From an uncultured Verrucomicrobiae bacterium (GTDB lineage Bacteria > Verrucomicrobiota > Verrucomicrobiia > Chthoniobacterales > JAFAMB01), in assembly GCA_963813025.1 (NCBI GenBank), contig CAWEXO010000008.1, positions 32,001 through 96,000 of the forward strand: a DNA stretch of 64,000 nt. The letters run 5' to 3'. Both the position numbers and the translations under genes were made by a program. The notes beneath the pieces are model-generated. The model was not told where the DNA came from and did no database searches. It saw only the letters and a program-made list of their open reading frames with translations. Of this stretch, positions 4,625-54,171 are shown piece after piece; positions within the stretch are counted from its first letter, which is position 1, and every line of letters starts with the position of its first letter.

Positions 4625-4999
4625 TCTTGGAGATGATTATTATGCCTGAATACCGCATCGAGGTCTGTGACGAGATACTCGCCGGGCACACCATCACGTT
4701 ATGCCGATGCGTCGAGTTATTTGCAGATAGTAACGCTTGCCTCGCAACACCCCAGGTCGGTAGGGGCAGGCTCAGGCAGGCTCAGGCAAGCTCCTGCTTG
4801 ACCTCCTTAGCGTTGGATTACGCTTCGATCTGGACGAGCAGGCCAAGACTACGGTGCGCCCTCCGGTCAAGCATTTGTGTATTCCATTTCCAAGCCAGGA
4901 CGGAGGCTTGCTATAGTCGGGAGCTCATCCCTCACTACGAAAGCGGCTCGAATGAAATTCTCGCCCTTGTACCTTGCCCCACCAATTTTTTTTTCCCTT

Positions 5000-5215
5000 T
5001 TAAAGCCGCCCGCAAGGGCGGAACTCTGGAAGTGAAGAACTTGGCCGAGGAGGGTGGAAAACTGCCTCGCCCAAAGGTCGGTAGAACCTGTCCGGTAGAT
5101 TAGTCCACCCTTCCTCGTGCCGCACCTGCATAAGACCGTACCGTATCTTAGGCCCTTCCAAACAGGGTTGGAACATAAGCCCGTGTTCACAAGGCTCTGT
5201 CAGCAGGCGCGCGCC
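5000..5215 (+). ncRNA. Putative IS110 bridge RNA, copy 1
   Basis: 5' GCAA hairpin 5006-5021. Stem 5046-5058/5104-5117 encloses CCTCGCCC (5065-5072) and GTCCGGTAG (5090-5098), which match the target. A second stem-loop holds ACCGTATCT (5140-5148) and ACAAG (5189-5193), which match the donor junction. Confidence 0.85.
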
Positions 5216-5263
5216 CAAGCGCTTCATCAAACAAAGAACCAATTCAACGCGAATTCCTGTCTG

Positions 5264-6193
5264 ATGAAAAAACGCTACTGCATGGGTATTGATATGGCAA
5301 AAGCAAGCTTTGACTTTTGCCTGCTCTCCAAGAATGGCACTCGCCTGTGGCGGGGAAAGTTCAGCAATGATGCGACCGGCATTGGAGCATTTTTAGCCCA
5401 ACTCCAGGCCCGCTCTTGGCCGCTCTCCCAGATCCACTTCGCCCTGGAAGCCACCGGGGTCTACGGGAAGAGATTGATCGCCGCTCTGCACCAAGCAGGC
5501 TTGGCGGTCAGCGTGCTCAATCCCGCCCAAGTCAAATACTTTGCTTTCTCGGTCCTGCGCCGCACCAAAAATGATCGGGTTGATGCGGCCATCATTGCCC
5601 AGTTTTGTCTGGAGCGAAAACCACTGGCCACTCGGCCGCTGCGCCCCCTTGAGGAAGAATTCAAACTGCTGCCCGAGCTTATCAGCCAACAGCGTGGCCA
5701 ACGACTCGCCCAGCTCAAGAAAGAAATCGCTCAGCTGGAGTCGGCCATCTTCGGCTTAGTCGCGGCTGATCAGGCTTTAAGCCGCCAAAGCCAACTGCTG
5801 TGCTCTATTCCCGGCATTGCCCAGCTCACAGCCGCCAAGCTGCTGGCCGAGCTGGCCGGTAAAGAGTTCCAATCGGCTCGGCAGTTGGCGGCCTATGCTG
5901 GGCTGACTCCTTCTGAATTCCGTTCCGGTGTCTCGCTCTACGGCAAAACCACCCTGTGCAAAATCGGCAACGCTTTCCTGCGCAAAGCACTCTATTTGCC
6001 GGCCGCCGTTGCTCGCCGCTGGTGCAAACCCATCCAGCAATGGGCCGCAGGTCTCGAGTCGCGCAAGCTCCACTCCCTGGCTATCCGCGGTGCCGTCATG
6101 CGAAAACTCCTGCACATCGCCTTCGGTGTTCTCTCTCACCAACAACCCTACAACCCTAACCTGGCCCGCCATTCCTTAAACCAATGCCCTTGA
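5264..6193 (+). CDS. IS110 transposase/recombinase lacking 27 aa in-frame
   Basis: MGIDMAK, ALEATG and KNDRVDA (DEDD), IPGIA, LAAYAGL-P-FRSG motifs. Confidence 0.9.
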   Translation: MKKRYCMGIDMAKASFDFCLLSKNGTRLWRGKFSNDATGIGAFLAQLQARSWPLSQIHFALEATGVYGKRLIAALHQAGLAVSVLNPAQVKYFAFSVLRRTKNDRVDAAIIAQFCLERKPLATRPLRPLEEEFKLLPELISQQRGQRLAQLKKEIAQLESAIFGLVAADQALSRQSQLLCSIPGIAQLTAAKLLAELAGKEFQSARQLAAYAGLTPSEFRSGVSLYGKTTLCKIGNAFLRKALYLPAAVARRWCKPIQQWAAGLESRKLHSLAIRGAVMRKLLHIAFGVLSHQQPYNPNLARHSLNQCP

Positions 6194-6303
6194 CATCCAA
6201 GACCGTATCTACCGGACCTCGTCCAAGTTCCAATCCACCGGACCTCATCCGAGTTCCAATCTTGTCCGGCCCTTGAACCGCCTGCGATGCAGCTTGTAGG
6301 GCT

Positions 6304-49546: not shown

Positions 49547-50527
49547 TTATAAAAGTTTTAGTTTCGTTAAATCCTGGGAATCGATTATTCCGACCGGCTG
49601 ATGATCGCTATTGATGACTATCAAATCGTCTATCCGATGCTGCTCAAGCACGTTGAGAACTTCAACCGCCAGCCGGTCTCCCTGGATGGTGACCGGGTGG
49701 CGGACCATGTAGCGCTGAACTGGTTGTTTGGCAACCGCGGAATCATGTTCAAAAGCGCGCACAAAGTCGCCGTGCGTAAAAATGCCGGCCAGACGACCCT
49801 CGTCGTCGACAATTACAGCAACGCCCGCGCGTCGCTCGTTCATCGCATGGAGCACGGTCAGGATCTCAACGTCCGGTCCGACCTTAGGCATCCGCGCTTC
49901 TCCCCGCATGACATCAGAAACTTTCTGCAAGAGTACTCGGCCCAGTCGGCCGCCCGGGTGAAACTTTGAAAAATCCTCCTGCCGGAATCCCCGGGCTTCG
50001 AGCAAAACCATGGCCAGCGCATCACCGAGGGCAAGCATGACCGTGCTGCTGGAGGTCGGGGTCAAGTTGAACGGACATGCTTCCTGGTCCACTCGACAGT
50101 CCAGGACGATGTCGCTATGCCGGGCCAAAGTCGACGAGGGATCGCCCGTAAAGCAAATCAGCCGAACGGCAAACCGTTTCAGCGACGGTAACACGTTCAA
50201 CAGTTCGGCGGTTTCTCCGCTATAGCTTAGCGCCAGGACGGCGTCGCCATCGCCCACAATCCCCAGGTCACCGTGCAATGCGTTCAAGGGGTTGAGCACG
50301 ACCGCGGGTGAGCCAGTGCTGGTAAGCGTGGCTGCCACTTTGTCCCCGATCTGGCCAGACTTACCGACACCAATCACGACAATCTTATGACCGGTTTCCA
50401 GTGTAGATTTGAGAAGCTCGACAGCTTCCGAGAATTGACTATTCAGACGGTTGGCCAGGCGCTCCAGCTCATCCCGCTCAATTTGCAGGACTGCTCGGGC
50501 ACGCTCGATATGAACGGAGGCGGACAT
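49547..50527 (-). CDS. kdsD: Arabinose-5-phosphate isomerase (KpsF/GutQ)
   Basis: GVGKSG, HGDLG, SYSGET, EACP..L.PT.S, FHPGG and CBS pair. Confidence 0.93.
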   Translation of the reverse strand: MSASVHIERARAVLQIERDELERLANRLNSQFSEAVELLKSTLETGHKIVVIGVGKSGQIGDKVAATLTSTGSPAVVLNPLNALHGDLGIVGDGDAVLALSYSGETAELLNVLPSLKRFAVRLICFTGDPSSTLARHSDIVLDCRVDQEACPFNLTPTSSSTVMLALGDALAMVLLEARGFRQEDFSKFHPGGRLGRVLLQKVSDVMRGEARMPKVGPDVEILTVLHAMNERRAGVAVIVDDEGRLAGIFTHGDFVRAFEHDSAVAKQPVQRYMVRHPVTIQGDRLAVEVLNVLEQHRIDDLIVINSDHQPVGIIDSQDLTKLKLL

Positions 50528-50889
50528 TGCAGATAGAGTTGGGGAAGTTCGAGGAACTTCTAGGAAGGTCAAGCCTCCCGCGGAAAACTTATTTGAACCG
50601 GAGGTCGTGGAGTGTGCGGCTTCTCACCGCTTTGAGCCGTGCAAAGCGCGGCGTGGACCCGAAAGCAGAGAGCATATTGGAACATTCTTGGGCTCTGTGC
50701 TGGCAGGGCGATCCACCTTGGCGGACGAGCGTCAGCGAGAACTTGTTTGACGTGTCCGCCATAGCTTCGCCGAACGAGGAGCCGTCTTGGAGGTGCGGCA
50801 CATCTCCTCTCCGGCTCAAACGAGTCCTCGCCAAGGCTCGGATAAATTTTCGCCCTTGTACCTTGCCCCACCAATTTTTTTTCCCTTTT

Positions 50890-51103
50890 AAAGCCGCCCG
50901 CAAGGGCGGAACTCTGGAAGTGAAGAACTTGGCCGAGGAGGGTGGAAAACTGCCTCGCCCAGAGGTCGGTAGAACCTGTCCGGTAGATTAGTCCACCCTT
51001 CCTCGTGCCGCACCTGCATAAGACCGTACCGTATCTTAGGCCGTTCCAAACAGGGTTGGAACATAAGCCCGTGTTCACAAGGCTCTGTCAGCAGGCGCGC
51101 GCC
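50890..51103 (+). ncRNA. Putative IS110 bridge RNA, copy 2
   Basis: Hairpin 50894-50909; target guides 50953-50960 and 50978-50986; donor guides 51028-51036 and 51077-51081. Confidence 0.85.
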
Positions 51104-51151
51104 CAAGCGCTTCATCAAACAAAGAACCAATTCAACGCGAATTCCTCTCTG

Positions 51152-52162
51152 ATGAAAAAACGCTACTGCATGGGTATTGATATGGCAAAAGCAAGCTTTG
51201 ACTTTTGCCTGCTCTCCAAGAATGGCACTCGCCTGTGGCGGGGAAAGTTCAGCAATGATGCGACCGGCATTGGAGCATTTTTAGCCCAACTCCAGGCCCG
51301 CTCTTGGCCGCTCTCCCAGATCCACTTCGCCCTGGAAGCCACCGGGGTCTACGGGAAGAGATTGATCGCCGCTCTGCACCAAGCAGGCTTGGCGGTCAGC
51401 GTGCTCAATCCCGCCCAAGTCAAATACTTTGCTTTCTCGGTCCTGCGCCGCACCAAAAATGATCGGGTTGATGCGGCCATCATTGCCCAGTTTTGTCTGG
51501 AGCGAAAACCACTGGCCACTCGGCCGCTGCGCCCCCTTGAGGAAGAATTCAAACTGCTGGTGCGGGAGCGCGAAAGCCGGGTTGGCGAGCTCATCCGGGA
51601 ACAGAACCGGGTGAAAAAAGACCCTTACCAAATTGCGCTGCCCGAGCTTATCAGCCAACAGCGTGGCCAACGACTCGCCCAGCTCAAGAAAGAAATCGCT
51701 CAGCTGGAGTCGGCCATCTTCGGCTTAGTCGCGGCTGATCAGGCTTTAAGCCGCCAAAGCCAACTGCTGTGCTCTATTCCCGGCATTGCCCAGCTCACAG
51801 CCGCCAAGCTGCTGGCCGAGCTGGCCGGTAAAGAGTTCCAATCGGCTCGGCAGTTGGCGGCCTATGCTGGGCTGACTCCTTCTGAATTCCGTTCCGGTGT
51901 CTCGCTCTACGGCAAAACCACCCTGTGCAAAATCGGCAACCCTTTCCTGCGCAAAGCACTCTATTTGCCGGCCGCCGTTGCTCGCCGCTGGTGCAAACCC
52001 ATCCAGCAATGGGCCGCAGGTCTCGAGTCGCGCAAGCTCCACTCCCTGGCTATCCGCGGTGCCGTCATGCGAAAACTCCTGCACATCGCCTTCGGTGTTC
52101 TCGCTCACCAACAACCCTACAACCCTAACCTGGCCCGCCATTCCTTAAAGCAATGCCCTTGA
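51152..52162 (+). CDS. IS110 transposase/recombinase, intact
   Basis: DEDD RuvC-like domain, coiled coil and Tnp domain with SG serine. Confidence 0.96.
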   Translation: MKKRYCMGIDMAKASFDFCLLSKNGTRLWRGKFSNDATGIGAFLAQLQARSWPLSQIHFALEATGVYGKRLIAALHQAGLAVSVLNPAQVKYFAFSVLRRTKNDRVDAAIIAQFCLERKPLATRPLRPLEEEFKLLVRERESRVGELIREQNRVKKDPYQIALPELISQQRGQRLAQLKKEIAQLESAIFGLVAADQALSRQSQLLCSIPGIAQLTAAKLLAELAGKEFQSARQLAAYAGLTPSEFRSGVSLYGKTTLCKIGNPFLRKALYLPAAVARRWCKPIQQWAAGLESRKLHSLAIRGAVMRKLLHIAFGVLAHQQPYNPNLARHSLKQCP

Positions 52163-52164
52163 CA
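52159..52164 (+). promoter_or_regulatory. -35 box TTGACA at the IS110 right end (also 6190-6195)
   Basis: Forms TTGACA-N17-TACCTT only when joined to the left end. Confidence 0.75.
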
Positions 52165-52272
52165 TCCAAGACCGTATCTACCGGAGTAGGGCCGAGGCCG
52201 GTTGCGAGACACTCCTTTCAGCAGAGCTGCCCTGCTTGATCTGCCGGGCTGAAGGCCTACAGTGGCAGACCG

Positions 52273-54171
52273 TTGACAACCCCAAACGAACAGCGTGGCA
52301 CGGTAACGCCGGAAGATCGTGCGAGCGACCGGTCTGAAGGTGTCCCGAGTTCCAAGTCACGAGTTTCGAGTTCCTGGTCTCGGCTTCGGGCCGAGCTGCA
52401 GTCGAGTCCGCTGCCGCCCGTATGGCTTTTCCCATTGTTGCTGCTGATTTTCTCGGTTGGCTACTACAGCTCTTACGCACTCTCCGGACTGGACCTGCAG
52501 GGCGAAGGCGGCACGATCGGCGTTATCGCAATGCGGCTCAACGCGGGCGCGCGTCCGATCACCGATACGTTTCTCGGTTACAACCTCCTTTGGTTTGCGC
52601 CGATAGCCCTTCTTTTCCAGGTGTTCGGGCCGAGCTATCTGGCGATCAAAGTCTTCTTCTTTGCGCTGTGCACGGTAACCGGCCAGCTCAGCTACCGCGT
52701 TTTGTTTCGCGCGACTGGCCGTCCGTTACTCAGTCTTACGGGCGCTCTCATCGTGGTGCTCGTCCCGGGCATGCAATTCCGGAACTACATGGCGTTCCTG
52801 GCCATAACCAACATGCTCGCCCTGCTGGAAGCGTTTGTTTTCGAGCAAGCCACGTTTTGGCACCGACTGACGTGGGTAGCCGCCTCCGCGGGTTTCGTCG
52901 CACTCACCTATCTTTTCCGGATCGATCTCGGAACCTTCTTTTCCGTGCTACTCGTTGGAGGCGCGGTCCTGAACTTACTTCTTGGGAGCGGCGCACTCAA
53001 ACCGCGCGTCTGGGCGACCTGTGGTGCCATCCTTCTGCTCCCGGCGATGTTTGCCCTTGTGCATTGGCCGGTTGATTGGTACGCCCGGGCCAGGGGGTTC
53101 GAAGCTGATTTCTGGGCGCAGTACGGTCAATGGTGGACCGAAATCGAAAGCCGGGCAGTCGTGGCAATCCAGCACCTCAAACCGGGGCCGGCCACTTCTT
53201 CGGCAGGGCCGGTGGCCCCTCCAATTGTTGCGCCGCACCCGCCAGGAGCAGCGGTCGGCGCACCGGCTGGCGACCGAAGCACCCGAGCCTTACCTGATCC
53301 CGACGAGATGCTCCTGGCGCGGCGCGCCAAACAGCGCGAACTGGCGTTTCTGCTTTACGCACCGCTCGTTTCGAGCTTGTCGATCCTGATTGTCGCCCTC
53401 ACGCTGAGTCTCAACGGCCTGCTCCGCCAGAACGACCGGCAAAAACAAGCTGGCTTCTTTCTTCTGCTGGCGCTCGGCTCCGCACTCACTCTCTTTCCCC
53501 AATATTTCTTCTTCCGGCCCGATCCGCCGCATCTGAGCGAGTTGATGGCGCCGTTCGTGATTGTCCTGGTCTACTGTCTGGCGCTCACCCTGACCTGGAT
53601 TGGAAGACAGCATAGCCGTCAGCTGCGCTTGGCTGCGGCTCTCTGGGCGTTATTCTTATGCTTTCACCTCTGGATTTATACCCGGTACGGCGTCAACCAG
53701 CCTTGGATGGGAGCGATCGCCATCAAAAAACCGGGGGAAAAGCGGGTCGAGTTTGCGAACCAGGTGATCGCTTATCTGCCCGGCGAGACCAGAGCCGAGT
53801 ACGAGCGCCTTTATCAGGTAATCACCGATCATTCCGGATCGAGCGATTATGTCGTAAGTTTTCCTTACTCGCCCATGATCAACTTCATGACGAACCGGCG
53901 ATCTTACAGGTACAACCTGTATGTGGACAATTCGACTCGTCCGCTGGATTTCGATCGCACGGCGATCGCGGAGATCGAGCGGTATAAACCGGCCGTAGTT
54001 GCAATCGACGATGTCGCCATGAACGGCACGCCCGGTTCACGCTTCAGCGCATGGGCGGCGCCGACACTGGAATACGTACAGAGTCACTACCGGTTCGGGG
54101 GTCGATTTGTGCGGACGGATTTGTACATCCGGCCGGAGGAGGGCAAGAAGGACGGGCCGGGGAAGCAATGA
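52273..54171 (+). CDS. Polytopic membrane protein (possible GT-C-type glycosyltransferase)
   Basis: Many TM helices, early loop LDLQGEG and a C-terminal soluble domain. Confidence 0.6.
   Translation: MTTPNEQRGTVTPEDRASDRSEGVPSSKSRVSSSWSRLRAELQSSPLPPVWLFPLLLLIFSVGYYSSYALSGLDLQGEGGTIGVIAMRLNAGARPITDTFLGYNLLWFAPIALLFQVFGPSYLAIKVFFFALCTVTGQLSYRVLFRATGRPLLSLTGALIVVLVPGMQFRNYMAFLAITNMLALLEAFVFEQATFWHRLTWVAASAGFVALTYLFRIDLGTFFSVLLVGGAVLNLLLGSGALKPRVWATCGAILLLPAMFALVHWPVDWYARARGFEADFWAQYGQWWTEIESRAVVAIQHLKPGPATSSAGPVAPPIVAPHPPGAAVGAPAGDRSTRALPDPDEMLLARRAKQRELAFLLYAPLVSSLSILIVALTLSLNGLLRQNDRQKQAGFFLLLALGSALTLFPQYFFFRPDPPHLSELMAPFVIVLVYCLALTLTWIGRQHSRQLRLAAALWALFLCFHLWIYTRYGVNQPWMGAIAIKKPGEKRVEFANQVIAYLPGETRAEYERLYQVITDHSGSSDYVVSFPYSPMINFMTNRRSYRYNLYVDNSTRPLDFDRTAIAEIERYKPAVVAIDDVAMNGTPGSRFSAWAAPTLEYVQSHYRFGGRFVRTDLYIRPEEGKKDGPGKQ

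What the first reader, a model, noticed from the sequence alone, without database searches (positions are those of the whole stretch)
50857..52179. IS110 element with a fully readable bridge RNA whose guides match both its target and its own donor junction
Seen: the ~300-nt non-coding left end contains a 5' GCAA hairpin and two large stem-loops. Loop 1 (stem CGAGGAGGGTGGA / TCCACCCTTCCTCG) carries CCTCGCCC and GTCCGGTAG. These match the rebuilt insertion sites TCTCGCC-CT-ACCGGAC (copy 1; right guide 9/9, left 7/8) and TTTCGCC-CT-ACCGGAG (copy 2). Loop 2 carries ACCGTATCT and ACAAG, which match the right-end/left-end junction ACCGTAT-CT-TGTAC. Established: IS110/IS621 recombinases use a bispecific bridge RNA and a CT core. 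Inference: this is a naturally encoded RNA-guided recombinase from a lineage far from E. coli, with a different target guide, and so a candidate new programmable bridge recombinase ortholog.
Basis: partly seen in the sequence, partly recalled or inferred. Interest (0 to 1): 0.92.

Follow-up and report, generated by a model that had tools for sequence, protein, structure and literature searches.

The report
IS110 jumping gene with bridge RNA
This is a small jumping gene from a soil bacterium that carries its own guide RNA, which steers it into one spot of a common genomic repeat; it is a clean, probably active example of a mechanism described in 2024, not a new one.

Summary
Window 50857-52179 is a 1323-bp IS110-group insertion sequence. 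It has a 295-nt non-coding left end, a 336-aa DEDD/Tnp recombinase gene (51152-52162) and a 17-nt right end.

The left end folds into a 5' hairpin and two stem-loops with internal loops. Loop 1 carries CCUCGCCCA and GUCCGGUAG; loop 2 carries ACCGUAUCU and GUucACAAG. They match the insertion site (TTTCGCC-CT-ACCGG) and the element's own right-end/left-end junction (ACCGTAT-CT-TGTAC), on the strands and in the order described for IS621.

- All 12 genomic copies with both ends sit at TCGC[C/T]-CT|ACCGG.
- The empty site occurs 95 times (about 1 expected), inside a dispersed repeat.
- Across 14 orthologues the guides change with the targets (0 of 20,000 permutations).
- A covariance model built here finds the same structure upstream of 15 other IS110 genes.

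- The left guide match is weak, 6-7 of 9, and its last base misses the T of the core.
- The right donor guide is discontiguous.
- "Copy 1" has an in-frame 27-codon deletion.

No transcript or activity data exist. The scan had already noted IS110 elements elsewhere in this genome. Verdict: new member of a known kind, of modest interest.

The parts
50848..50856 (+). left half of the target plus CT core (TTTCGCC-CT), part of a dispersed repeat
50857..52179 (+). IS110-group insertion sequence, 1323 bp; one of 7 full-length copies at 99-100% identity
50859..50864 (+). -10-like hexamer TACCTT; on circularisation it lies 17 bp from the -35 in the right end
   Evidence: read from the sequence; expression not tested
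50894..50909 (+). 5' hairpin CCGCCC-GCAA-GGGCGG of the bridge RNA
50931..51009 (+). target-binding stem-loop (closing stem 50931-50946 with 50992-51009; inner stem AGGT 50963-50966 with ACCT 50974-50977)
50953..50961 (+). left target guide CCUCGCCCA; same sense as the top strand of the left target; 5-7 of 9 against the 9 main-family sites; last base A where the core has T
50978..50986 (+). right target guide GUCCGGUAG (reverse complement of CT-ACCGGAC); 7-9 of 9 at all 12 sites; followed by AU (50987-50988) at the handshake position
   Evidence: PMC11208158 passages
51010..51098 (+). donor-binding stem-loop (closing stem GCACCTGC with GCAGGCGC; inner hairpin GTTCCAA/TTGGAAC)
51028..51036 (+). 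left donor guide ACCGUAUCU, identical to the last 9 nt of the right end
51073..51081 (+). right donor guide GUucACAAG; pairs discontiguously with CT-TGTAC; G51082 lies at the handshake position opposite target base 7 (C)
   Evidence: pattern as in PMC11208160
51152..52162 (+). recombinase gene, 336 aa, RuvC-like DEDD domain plus Tnp domain; D10, E62, D104, D107, S248
52159..52164 (+). -35 hexamer TTGACA in the right end, overlapping the stop codon
52171..52179 (+). left donor half plus CT core (ACCGTAT-CT), the end of the element
52180..52186 (+). right half of the target (ACCGGAG)

Best explanation
This is a probably active insertion sequence of the IS110 group in a soil Verrucomicrobiota genome.

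Inferred mechanism, by analogy with IS621:
1. The element excises as a circle.
2. Joining the right and left ends puts a perfect -35 (TTGACA) 17 bp from a -10-like TACCTT.
3. A roughly 230-nt bridge RNA is then transcribed from the left end, probably together with the recombinase message.
4. The recombinase binds this RNA.
5. The first internal loop pairs with both strands of the chromosomal site TTTCGCC-CT-ACCGG.
6. The second loop pairs with the circle junction ACCGTAT-CT-TGTAC.
7. Strand exchange at the shared CT inserts the element.

The chromosomal site is one position in a dispersed repeat, which supplies about a hundred landing sites.

Shown here: the anatomy, the guide-site matches, the site specificity of all copies, covariation of guides with sites across orthologues, and conservation of structure and catalytic residues.

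Not shown: transcription, circle formation, catalysis and reprogrammability.
For: Protein:
- Pfam, NCBIfam and IS621/ISCro4 matches.
- All five catalytic residues are invariant in 5 orthologues down to 35% identity.

Copies:
- 7 full copies at 99-100% identity with open frames.
- Guides are identical in the 7 full copies.

Site specificity:
- 12 of 12 copies with both ends have CT at both junctions and ACCGG on the right. The left flank is TCGCC in 11 and TCGCT in 1.
- The empty site TCGCCCTACCGG occurs 95 times against about 1 expected.

Guide-site covariation over 14 orthologues:
- Right guide against its own site averages 4.07 of 5 non-core bases, against 1.76 for other elements' sites.
- Left guide averages 6.14 of 7 against 4.62.
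- 0 of 20,000 permutations reach either value. This also holds in a reduced set of 11, from which G023, G015 and Chth83 were dropped as near-duplicates.
- Example: the 49%-identical element of G012 has the site CTGCGC-CT-TTGTG and the guides GGCGCCU and CACAAAG.

Structure:
- A covariance model built from 6 Verrucomicrobial sequences was run on the window and 53 fetched loci. It gave 17 matches at E up to 1.
- 15 lie at other IS110 loci: 14 span the full model (E 6e-19 to 0.45) and one is partial.
- For the loci whose left ends I had read, the matches lie between the element start and the recombinase gene.
- 90.1% of cells are paired against 67.3% in shuffles. 35 of 40 pairs show compensatory change. 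Slid controls give 39-48%.

Junction promoter:
- TTGACA, 17 bp, TACCTT.
- 9 of 14 orthologues have at least 5 of 6 -35 bases at that place.

Handshake positions:
- AU follows the right target guide, opposite donor bases A6 and T7.
- The base after ACAAG is complementary to target base 7 in all 15 left ends read by eye (G with C in 13, C with G in L066, U with A in L069). The rule is from PMC11208158 passages.
Against: - No RNA data exist: no RNA run holds the sequence.
- No sigma-70-like promoter is found in the integrated state, so expression rests on an unobserved circle.
- The left target guide is weak. It matches 5-7 of 9 at the 9 main-family sites, and its last base (A) cannot pair with the T of the core. 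Durrant et al. report that pairing to both strands of the CT core is strongly preferred in IS621 (PMC11208160 passage).
- The 6-mer left-guide and 5-mer right-donor matches are at chance level taken alone.
- The alignment used for pair counts was fitted to the model, and the orthologues are not independent.
- The genome is a MAG rated 80% complete, so copy counts are lower bounds.
Confidence: 0.9

Rival explanations
1. The structured left end is only a 5' untranslated leader that controls recombinase translation. On this view the protein itself recognises the repeat, and the loop-site matches are incidental.
For: Structured leaders that inhibit translation are described for the IS110-family element ISPpu9 (PMC12288879 passages). 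The left-guide 6-mer and ACAAG matches are at chance level taken alone.
Against: Guides change with the sites across 14 orthologues. The 9-mer donor match was reached in 0 of 5000 shuffles and the 8-mer target match in 32 of 5000. The matches sit in the two internal loops of a structure conserved with compensatory changes. A leader role and a guide role can coexist.
Confidence: 0.04
2. The element is a bridge-RNA IS110 by descent but is no longer mobile in this genome. The copies would then be relics spread by recombination between repeats.
For: Several copies are damaged: an 81-bp deletion, a copy with an IS3-like element inside it, shorter derivatives and two fragments. There is no direct evidence of movement: the only 'empty' joint in a metagenome run is a 114-nt contig with 5 mismatches and 2 gaps.
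Against: Seven copies are 99.0-100% identical with intact 336-codon frames and identical guides, each with different flanks on both sides. The one same-genus genome searched has no copy (0 matches, 79% complete). Both points suggest recent spread.
Confidence: 0.06

Closest known systems
IS621 of Escherichia coli and its 177-nt bridge RNA (Durrant et al. 2024, PMC11208160; Hiraizumi et al. 2024, PMC11208158)
   Same: - Same domain order and catalytic residues.
- RNA encoded in the left end: a 5' hairpin, then a target loop, then a donor loop.
[quoted passage not shown]
- CT core, and a discontiguous right donor guide of 9 RNA bases over 7 DNA bases.
- AU handshake after the right target guide.
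- A -35 in the right end that meets a -10 in the left end.
- The target lies in a genomic repeat. Even the centre of the site is alike: IS621 ATCAGGC-CT-AC, here TTTCGCC-CT-ACCGG.
   Different: - The recombinase matches IS621 only distantly (phmmer E 2e-46; identity not computed), and the host phylum differs (Verrucomicrobiota).
- The RNA is longer, about 230 nt, with an extra hairpin in the donor loop.
- The left target guide pairs with only 6-7 bases and misses the second core base.
- The right target guide is long, 7-9 bases.
- No experimental data exist.
ISCro4 / IS622 bridge recombinases used for human genome rearrangement (bioRxiv 10.1101/2025.05.14.653916, abstract only; PDB 9t56)
   Same: Homologous over the whole protein (E 2.9e-44).
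   Different: Those were picked by screening and engineered. This one is untested.
ISPpu9 and ISPpu10 of Pseudomonas putida (PMC12288879 passages; bioRxiv 10.64898/2026.03.19.712850, abstract only)
   Same: IS110-family elements inserted at one position of repetitive extragenic sequences. They show junction promoters and MITE-like derivatives proposed to move with transposase supplied in trans.
   Different: Different hosts and repeats. ISPpu9 has a strong native promoter and extra small RNAs. Neither was looked for or seen here.
IS1111-group elements with seekRNA in the right end (cited in PMC11208160 and PMC12288879)
   Same: Same recombinase family and the same RNA-guided logic.
   Different: There the guide RNA lies downstream of the gene and the ends have subterminal inverted repeats. 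Here the right end is 17 nt and the RNA lies upstream, so this is the IS110 group, not IS1111.

Membership tests
IS110 family, IS110 group (bridge recombinase elements) | Recombinase with an N-terminal RuvC-like DEDD domain and a C-terminal Tnp domain with a catalytic serine | tested here: met
   PF01548 E 9e-32 and PF02371 E 5e-22. NF033542 scores 207 bits against a cut-off of 140. D10, E62, D104, D107 and S248 align to IS621 D11, E60, D102, D105 and S241 and are invariant in 5 orthologues.
IS110 family, IS110 group (bridge recombinase elements) | Long non-coding left end, short right end, no terminal inverted repeats | tested here: met
   The left end is 295 nt (50857-51151). The right end is 17 nt after the stop codon (52163-52179). 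The ends TGTACC... and ...CGTATCT are not inverted repeats.
IS110 family, IS110 group (bridge recombinase elements) | The same core dinucleotide (usually CT) at both junctions, and site-specific insertion | tested here: met
   12 of 12 copies with both ends...CT|TGTACC and ...TATCT|ACCGG.
IS110 family, IS110 group (bridge recombinase elements) | Left-end RNA with a 5' stem-loop and two stem-loops that have internal loops | tested here: met
   Single fold. A model built here matches 15 other IS110 loci, 14 of them over the full model. 90.1% of cells are paired and 35 of 40 pairs covary. Rfam 15 has no matching family, so no curated model could be used.
IS110 family, IS110 group (bridge recombinase elements) | [quoted passage not shown] | tested here: inconclusive
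   Strands and sides are as required. The right guide matches 7-9 of 9, core included. The left guide matches 5-7 of 9 at the 9 main-family sites and covers only the C of the core. Covariation across orthologues supports both guides.
IS110 family, IS110 group (bridge recombinase elements) | [quoted passage not shown] | tested here: met
   ACCGUAUCU matches the right end 9 of 9. GU..ACAAG is the reverse complement of CT-TGTAC. The GU/AU of this guide follows C/T at donor base +5 in most of the orthologues read by eye. The Latescibacterota element L078 (donor TGTAC, RNA GUAUCUACAAG) fits only with a longer bulge.
IS110 family, IS110 group (bridge recombinase elements) | A promoter reconstituted across the circle junction | tested here: met
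   At sequence level only: TTGACA, 17 bp, TACCTT. It is conserved in place in orthologues.
IS110 family, IS110 group (bridge recombinase elements) | The bridge RNA is transcribed and bound by the recombinase, and recombination depends on the guides | not testable with these tools
   No RNA run holds the sequence. No bench data exist.
IS1111 group (seekRNA in the right end) | Long right end that encodes the RNA, and subterminal inverted repeats of 7-17 bp | tested here: not met
   The right end is 17 nt and the structured RNA lies in the left end.

The most novel reading that the evidence does not exclude
The 1010/1011-bp derivatives are non-autonomous elements that have moved with a recombinase supplied in trans, guided by their own bridge RNA. 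They have lost the part of the gene holding D104 and D107. They keep both ends and a slightly different RNA (left guide CUUCGCCCA). If so, this genome holds a natural split system, with RNA plus donor on one element and the enzyme on another. The whole clade would also work with a left guide that pairs with only one core base, leaning on a long right guide.
Probability: 0.4. Interest if true: 0.4.

Novelty: new member of a known kind. Interest (0 to 1): 0.3.

Why it matters
It adds a well-documented natural bridge-recombinase system from Verrucomicrobiota. The system comes with 12 mapped insertions, about 95 empty sites, close relatives that have different guides, and deletion derivatives, so it could serve as a worked example or as one more candidate for orthologue screens.

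Two small points may interest people who engineer these enzymes:
- The left target guide does not pair with the second core base in this clade (A, A or G instead of U in three related elements).
- The right target guide is long.

Neither changes the known mechanism.

Tried and rejected
- Rfam 15 scan of 50000-53000 at E up to 10: the only match was mir-657 at E 7.3 on the minus strand, which is chance. There is no curated bridge-RNA family to align to.
- RNAalifold on a MAFFT alignment of 15 divergent left ends gave only 11 pairs. This is an alignment problem, solved by the model-based alignment.
- RNAalifold on 6 close sequences paired the two target guides with each other. I left those pairs out of the model as unlikely.
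- Sequencing runs: no RNA holder is listed.
- Laying 3 runs gave contigs only. A joint 50854 to 52179 sits in one 114-nt contig with 5 other letters and 2 gaps, and there are 4 loose ends reading ACCGGAGCAGGG.... These are most simply other copies of the repeat, not an empty allele or excision product.
- Does the C at position 2 of the left guide favour CTCGCC sites? 3 of 9 main-family insertions against 12 of 95 empty sites, Fisher p 0.12. The derivatives with U at that position sit in CTCGCC sites in 2 of 3 cases. There is no support.
- Promoter scan of the integrated element found none.
- Supplements of PMC11208160: 10 Verrucomicrobia rows in Supplementary Table 1. Three peptide strings of this protein or its relatives and one RNA string gave 0 hits. 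File 3 was cut when stored and file 2 could not be read, so absence is not shown.
- Earlier scan notes by sequence: nothing.
- My first call on the gene used a wrong frame. It was corrected.
Full report
**What is there.**
Window 50857-52179 is a 1323-bp element.
- Its left flank ends TTTCGCC-CT.
- It begins TGTACCTTGCC and ends AAGACCGTAT-CT.
- It is followed by ACCGGAG.
- The only long frame is 51152-52162, 336 aa from the ATG before MKKRYCMGIDMAK.
- This leaves 295 non-coding bases on the left and 17 on the right.

**The protein.**
- It matches Pfam DEDD_Tnp_IS110 (E 9e-32) and Transposase_20 (E 5e-22).
- It matches NCBIfam NF033542 'IS110 family RNA-guided transposase' at 207 bits, cut-off 140.
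- Among solved structures it matches the IS621 transposase (8wt6, E 2.1e-46, residues 5-325) and the ISCro4 transposase (9t56, E 2.9e-44).
- In the printed alignment D10, E62, D104, D107 and S248-G249 stand on chain residues D13, E62, D104, D107 and S243-G244.
- The chain carries two extra N-terminal residues. These are therefore D11, E60, D102, D105, S241 and G242, which Hiraizumi et al. show to be catalytic (PMC11208158, passages read).
- All five are invariant in an alignment with four orthologues of 76-35% identity.

**Copies and insertion sites.**
The window lies on contig C8 of a 4.42-Mb assembly of 16 contigs, rated 80% complete. BLAST of the element against it finds:
- 7 full copies (1322-1323 bp, 99.0-100% identical);
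- the window's second copy at 4968-6210;
- one copy with a 1449-bp IS3-like element in place of positions 297-1011;
- three shorter derivatives of a diverged subfamily (90% and 82% identity; 1010, 1011 and 630 bp);
- two fragments.

All 12 copies that keep both ends show the same junctions. The left flank is ...TCGCC-CT in 11 and TCGCT-CT in 1. The right flank is ACCGG in 12. A 13th left junction, on the C14 fragment, reads GCTCGCC-CT.

The uninterrupted site TCGCCCTACCGG occurs 95 times in the genome against about 1 expected from base composition. It sits in a dispersed intergenic repeat, ggctcaaacaagttctcgctaaggctcgaataaattt-TCGCCCTACCGG-cgcagg..., often found as inverted pairs about 115 bp apart.

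The 11-mer TTCGCCCTACC is also abundant in other genera of the same family, with reversed-pattern controls at 0-8 per strand across the genomes searched:

| Genome | Count |
|---|---|
| G000 | 151 |
| G007 | 303 |
| G010 | 346 |
| G008 | 116 |
| G015 | 113 |

So the repeat is a lineage feature that the element exploits, as IS621 exploits REP sequences.

**The RNA.**
The minimum-free-energy fold of the left end gives three features (-99.1 kcal/mol, z -3.15):
- the hairpin CCGCCC-GCAA-GGGCGG;
- a long stem, 50931-50946 with 50992-51009, enclosing an internal loop with a small inner hairpin;
- a second stem, 51010-51017 with 51091-51098, enclosing another loop with an inner hairpin.

Durrant et al. 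(PMC11208160, passages read) state the rules:
[quoted passage not shown] - The core is included in each.
- The right donor guide pairs discontiguously, nine RNA bases over seven DNA bases.

This element follows these rules:
- CCUCGCCCA (50953-50961) has the sense of TTTCGCC-CT.
- GUCCGGUAG (50978-50986) is the reverse complement of CT-ACCGGAC.
- ACCGUAUCU (51028-51036) equals the last nine bases of the element.
- GU-uc-ACAAG (51073-51081) is the reverse complement of CT-TGTAC with a two-base bulge.
- AU after the right target guide is complementary to donor bases A6 and T7.
- G51082 after ACAAG is complementary to target base C7.

The last two are the 'handshake' positions of Hiraizumi et al..

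**How much is chance.**
For this element alone, 5000 dinucleotide shuffles of the left end gave these counts:

| Match | Shuffles reaching it |
|---|---|
| 9-mer donor | 0 |
| 8-mer right-target | 32 |
| 6-mer left-target | 1895 |
| ACAAG | 2318 |
| All four together | 0 |

The left-target and right-donor matches therefore need outside support.

**Orthologues.**
A protein search of 41 genomes (G000 and 40 relatives) found related elements in 6 other genomes. A scan of species-representative genomes gave 74 loci. For 14 elements I could place both ends.

| Element | Protein identity | Site | Guide(s) |
|---|---|---|---|
| G012 | 49% | CTGCGC-CT-TTGTG | GGCGCCU and CACAAAG |
| G023 | 77% | ...CT-ACCGT | ACGGUAG |
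| Myxococcota element | — | right half CT-CCGCT | AGCGGAG (7 of 7) |
| Polyangiaceae element | — | right half CT-CGCGC | GCGCGAG (7 of 7) |
| Two Chthoniobacterales elements | — | right half CT-AACGA | UCGUUAG (7 of 7) |
| G015 | 76% | right half CT-ACCT | GUUAGCUAG (3 of 5 non-core) |

G015 fits less well.

The summary figures are these:
- The right guide matches its own site at 4.07 of 5 non-core bases on average, against 1.76 for other elements' sites.
- The best left-guide match is 6.14 of 7 against 4.62.
- 0 of 20,000 permutations reach either observed sum, with all 14 elements or with 11 after dropping three near-duplicates.
- The base after ACAAG follows target base 7: G with C in 13 elements, C with G in Panacagrimonas, U with A in L069. 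This was read by eye.

**Structure across orthologues.**
Rfam has no family for this RNA. I built a model from six Verrucomicrobial sequences with the closing and inner stems only: 176 positions and 40 pairs.
- I ran it on the window and 53 fetched loci. It gave 17 matches at E up to 1: both window copies and 15 other IS110 loci. Those hosts include Gammaproteobacteria, Myxococcota, Acidobacteriota, Latescibacterota and Chthoniobacterales.
- All are on the recombinase strand. 14 span the full model, with E from 6e-19 to 0.45. One, L091, is partial.
- On the resulting alignment 90.1% of cells pair, against 67.3 ± 1.4% in shuffles and 39-48% when partners are slid.
- 35 of 40 pairs have compensatory changes.
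- The alignment is fitted to the model, which favours it. The slid controls and the number of pair types still argue for a real shared structure.

**Expression signals.**
- In the integrated state no sigma-70-like promoter is found in 50700-52300.
- Across the joined ends a perfect TTGACA (52159-52164, overlapping the stop codon) lies 17 bp from TACCTT (50859-50864).
- At the same place 9 of 14 orthologues have at least 5 of 6 -35 bases.
- This is the junction promoter described for IS621 and others (PMC11208160, PMC12288879 passages). It is inferred here, not shown.

**Deviations worth recording.**
1. The left target guide ends in A where the core has T. The related elements of G015 and G023 have A and G there, and the Myxococcota element has G. 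Ten of the 15 left ends read have CU there, four have C plus another base, and one has neither (read by eye). In IS621, pairing to both core strands is strongly preferred.
2. The right target guide is long, 7 bases at all sites and up to 9.
3. This copy differs from the other eight main-family copies at 50962 (G for A), next to the left guide.
4. Window copy 1 lacks 81 bp, aa 137-163. By alignment this is in the coiled-coil domain that mediates dimerisation in IS621.

**Deletion derivatives.**
- The C15 and C9 derivatives are 99.4% identical to each other and share one internal deletion. It removes roughly aa 85-193, including D104 and D107.
- They keep both ends and a bridge RNA with the left guide CUUCGCCCA.
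- They lie at different sites with different flanks.
- They therefore moved after the deletion, presumably with a recombinase supplied by another copy.
- MITE-like derivatives of an IS110-family element are already discussed for ISPpu9 (PMC12288879).

**Host.**
Genomes that the search tool places in the same family carry public titles of Verrucomicrobiota, Verrucomicrobiae and Chthoniobacterales MAGs. A same-order genome is titled Chthoniobacteraceae (matched by contig coordinates). The best DNA holder among sequencing runs is labelled a soil metagenome. 'Far from E. coli' is correct.

**Earlier notes of this scan.**
Three notes on other pieces of the same genome describe IS110 elements at a repeat and their bridge RNAs.
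- They agree in kind with this report.
- One reports a single shared core base for the element it examined. In the family studied here CT is shared at both junctions in 12 of 12 copies.

**Verdict.**
The element is an ordinary, well-preserved member of the bridge-RNA IS110 group. Nothing found here departs from the published mechanism beyond small variations in guide lengths and core pairing. Function remains inferred.

Noticed in passing
window 50806-50856 and 52180-52230; empty copies in the window at about 10857 (-), 27600 (+), 42968 (-), 43020 (-), 43137 (+): The target is one position of a dispersed intergenic repeat, often in inverted pairs about 115 bp apart. TCGCCCTACCGG occurs 95 times in the genome. 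The 11-mer TTCGCCCTACC occurs 113-346 times in four other genera of the family, against 0-8 per strand for the reversed control across the genomes searched. What the repeat does is unknown.
   Followed up: partly
window 50821-50849: Just upstream of the insertion point the repeat forms a terminator-like hairpin (CGAGTC...GGCTCG) followed by GATAAATTTT. The element inserts a few bases after the T run.
   Followed up: no
window 4968-6210: The second copy in the window has an in-frame 81-bp deletion bounded by a 4-bp microhomology. It removes aa 137-163, the coiled-coil region by alignment to IS621. The guides are identical to those of the flagged copy.
   Followed up: yes
G000 C9:67089-69145: One IS110 copy has its positions 297-1011 replaced by a 1449-bp IS3-like element: two overlapping frames of 123 and 370 aa, the second integrase-like by my reading. 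That element has two further copies, on C11 and C13, at 99.6-99.8% identity. No family scan was run on it.
   Followed up: partly
G000 C15:123618-124627, C9:218161-219171, C12:154618-155247: These are shorter derivatives of a diverged subfamily (90% and 82% identity to the main one). They have an internal deletion but keep both ends and a bridge RNA with a slightly different left guide (CUUCGCCCA). Two are 99.4% identical and lie at different sites. The C9 copy has a changed right guide (GUCCGCUAG). No full-length master of this subfamily is in the assembly.
   Followed up: partly
G000 C4:5754-5894 (minus strand): This is a 141-bp relic covering only the guide part of the RNA gene (element positions 99-239, 94% identity). 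Its left edge falls at CTTCGCCC, which is shared between the left-guide coding DNA and the hairpin loop of a neighbouring repeat copy. That suggests a deletion by microhomology. An empty target site lies about 80 bp away.
   Followed up: partly
L091 (Chthoniobacterales MAG) about 250-400; L075 (Competibacteraceae MAG) 1921 and 2028: One orthologue has an insertion of about 80 nt inside its donor loop just before the left donor guide, and the model matches it only partially. Another has two extra right-end-like motifs (..GGTATCT|AC..) 220 and 330 bp downstream of its real end.
   Followed up: no
L024 / L057 (G010, Chthoniobacterales MAG): This is a 76%-identical relative whose left end is cut inside the target loop. 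Everything 5' of the closing stem's 3' strand is replaced by unrelated sequence, and its gene is also broken.
   Followed up: no
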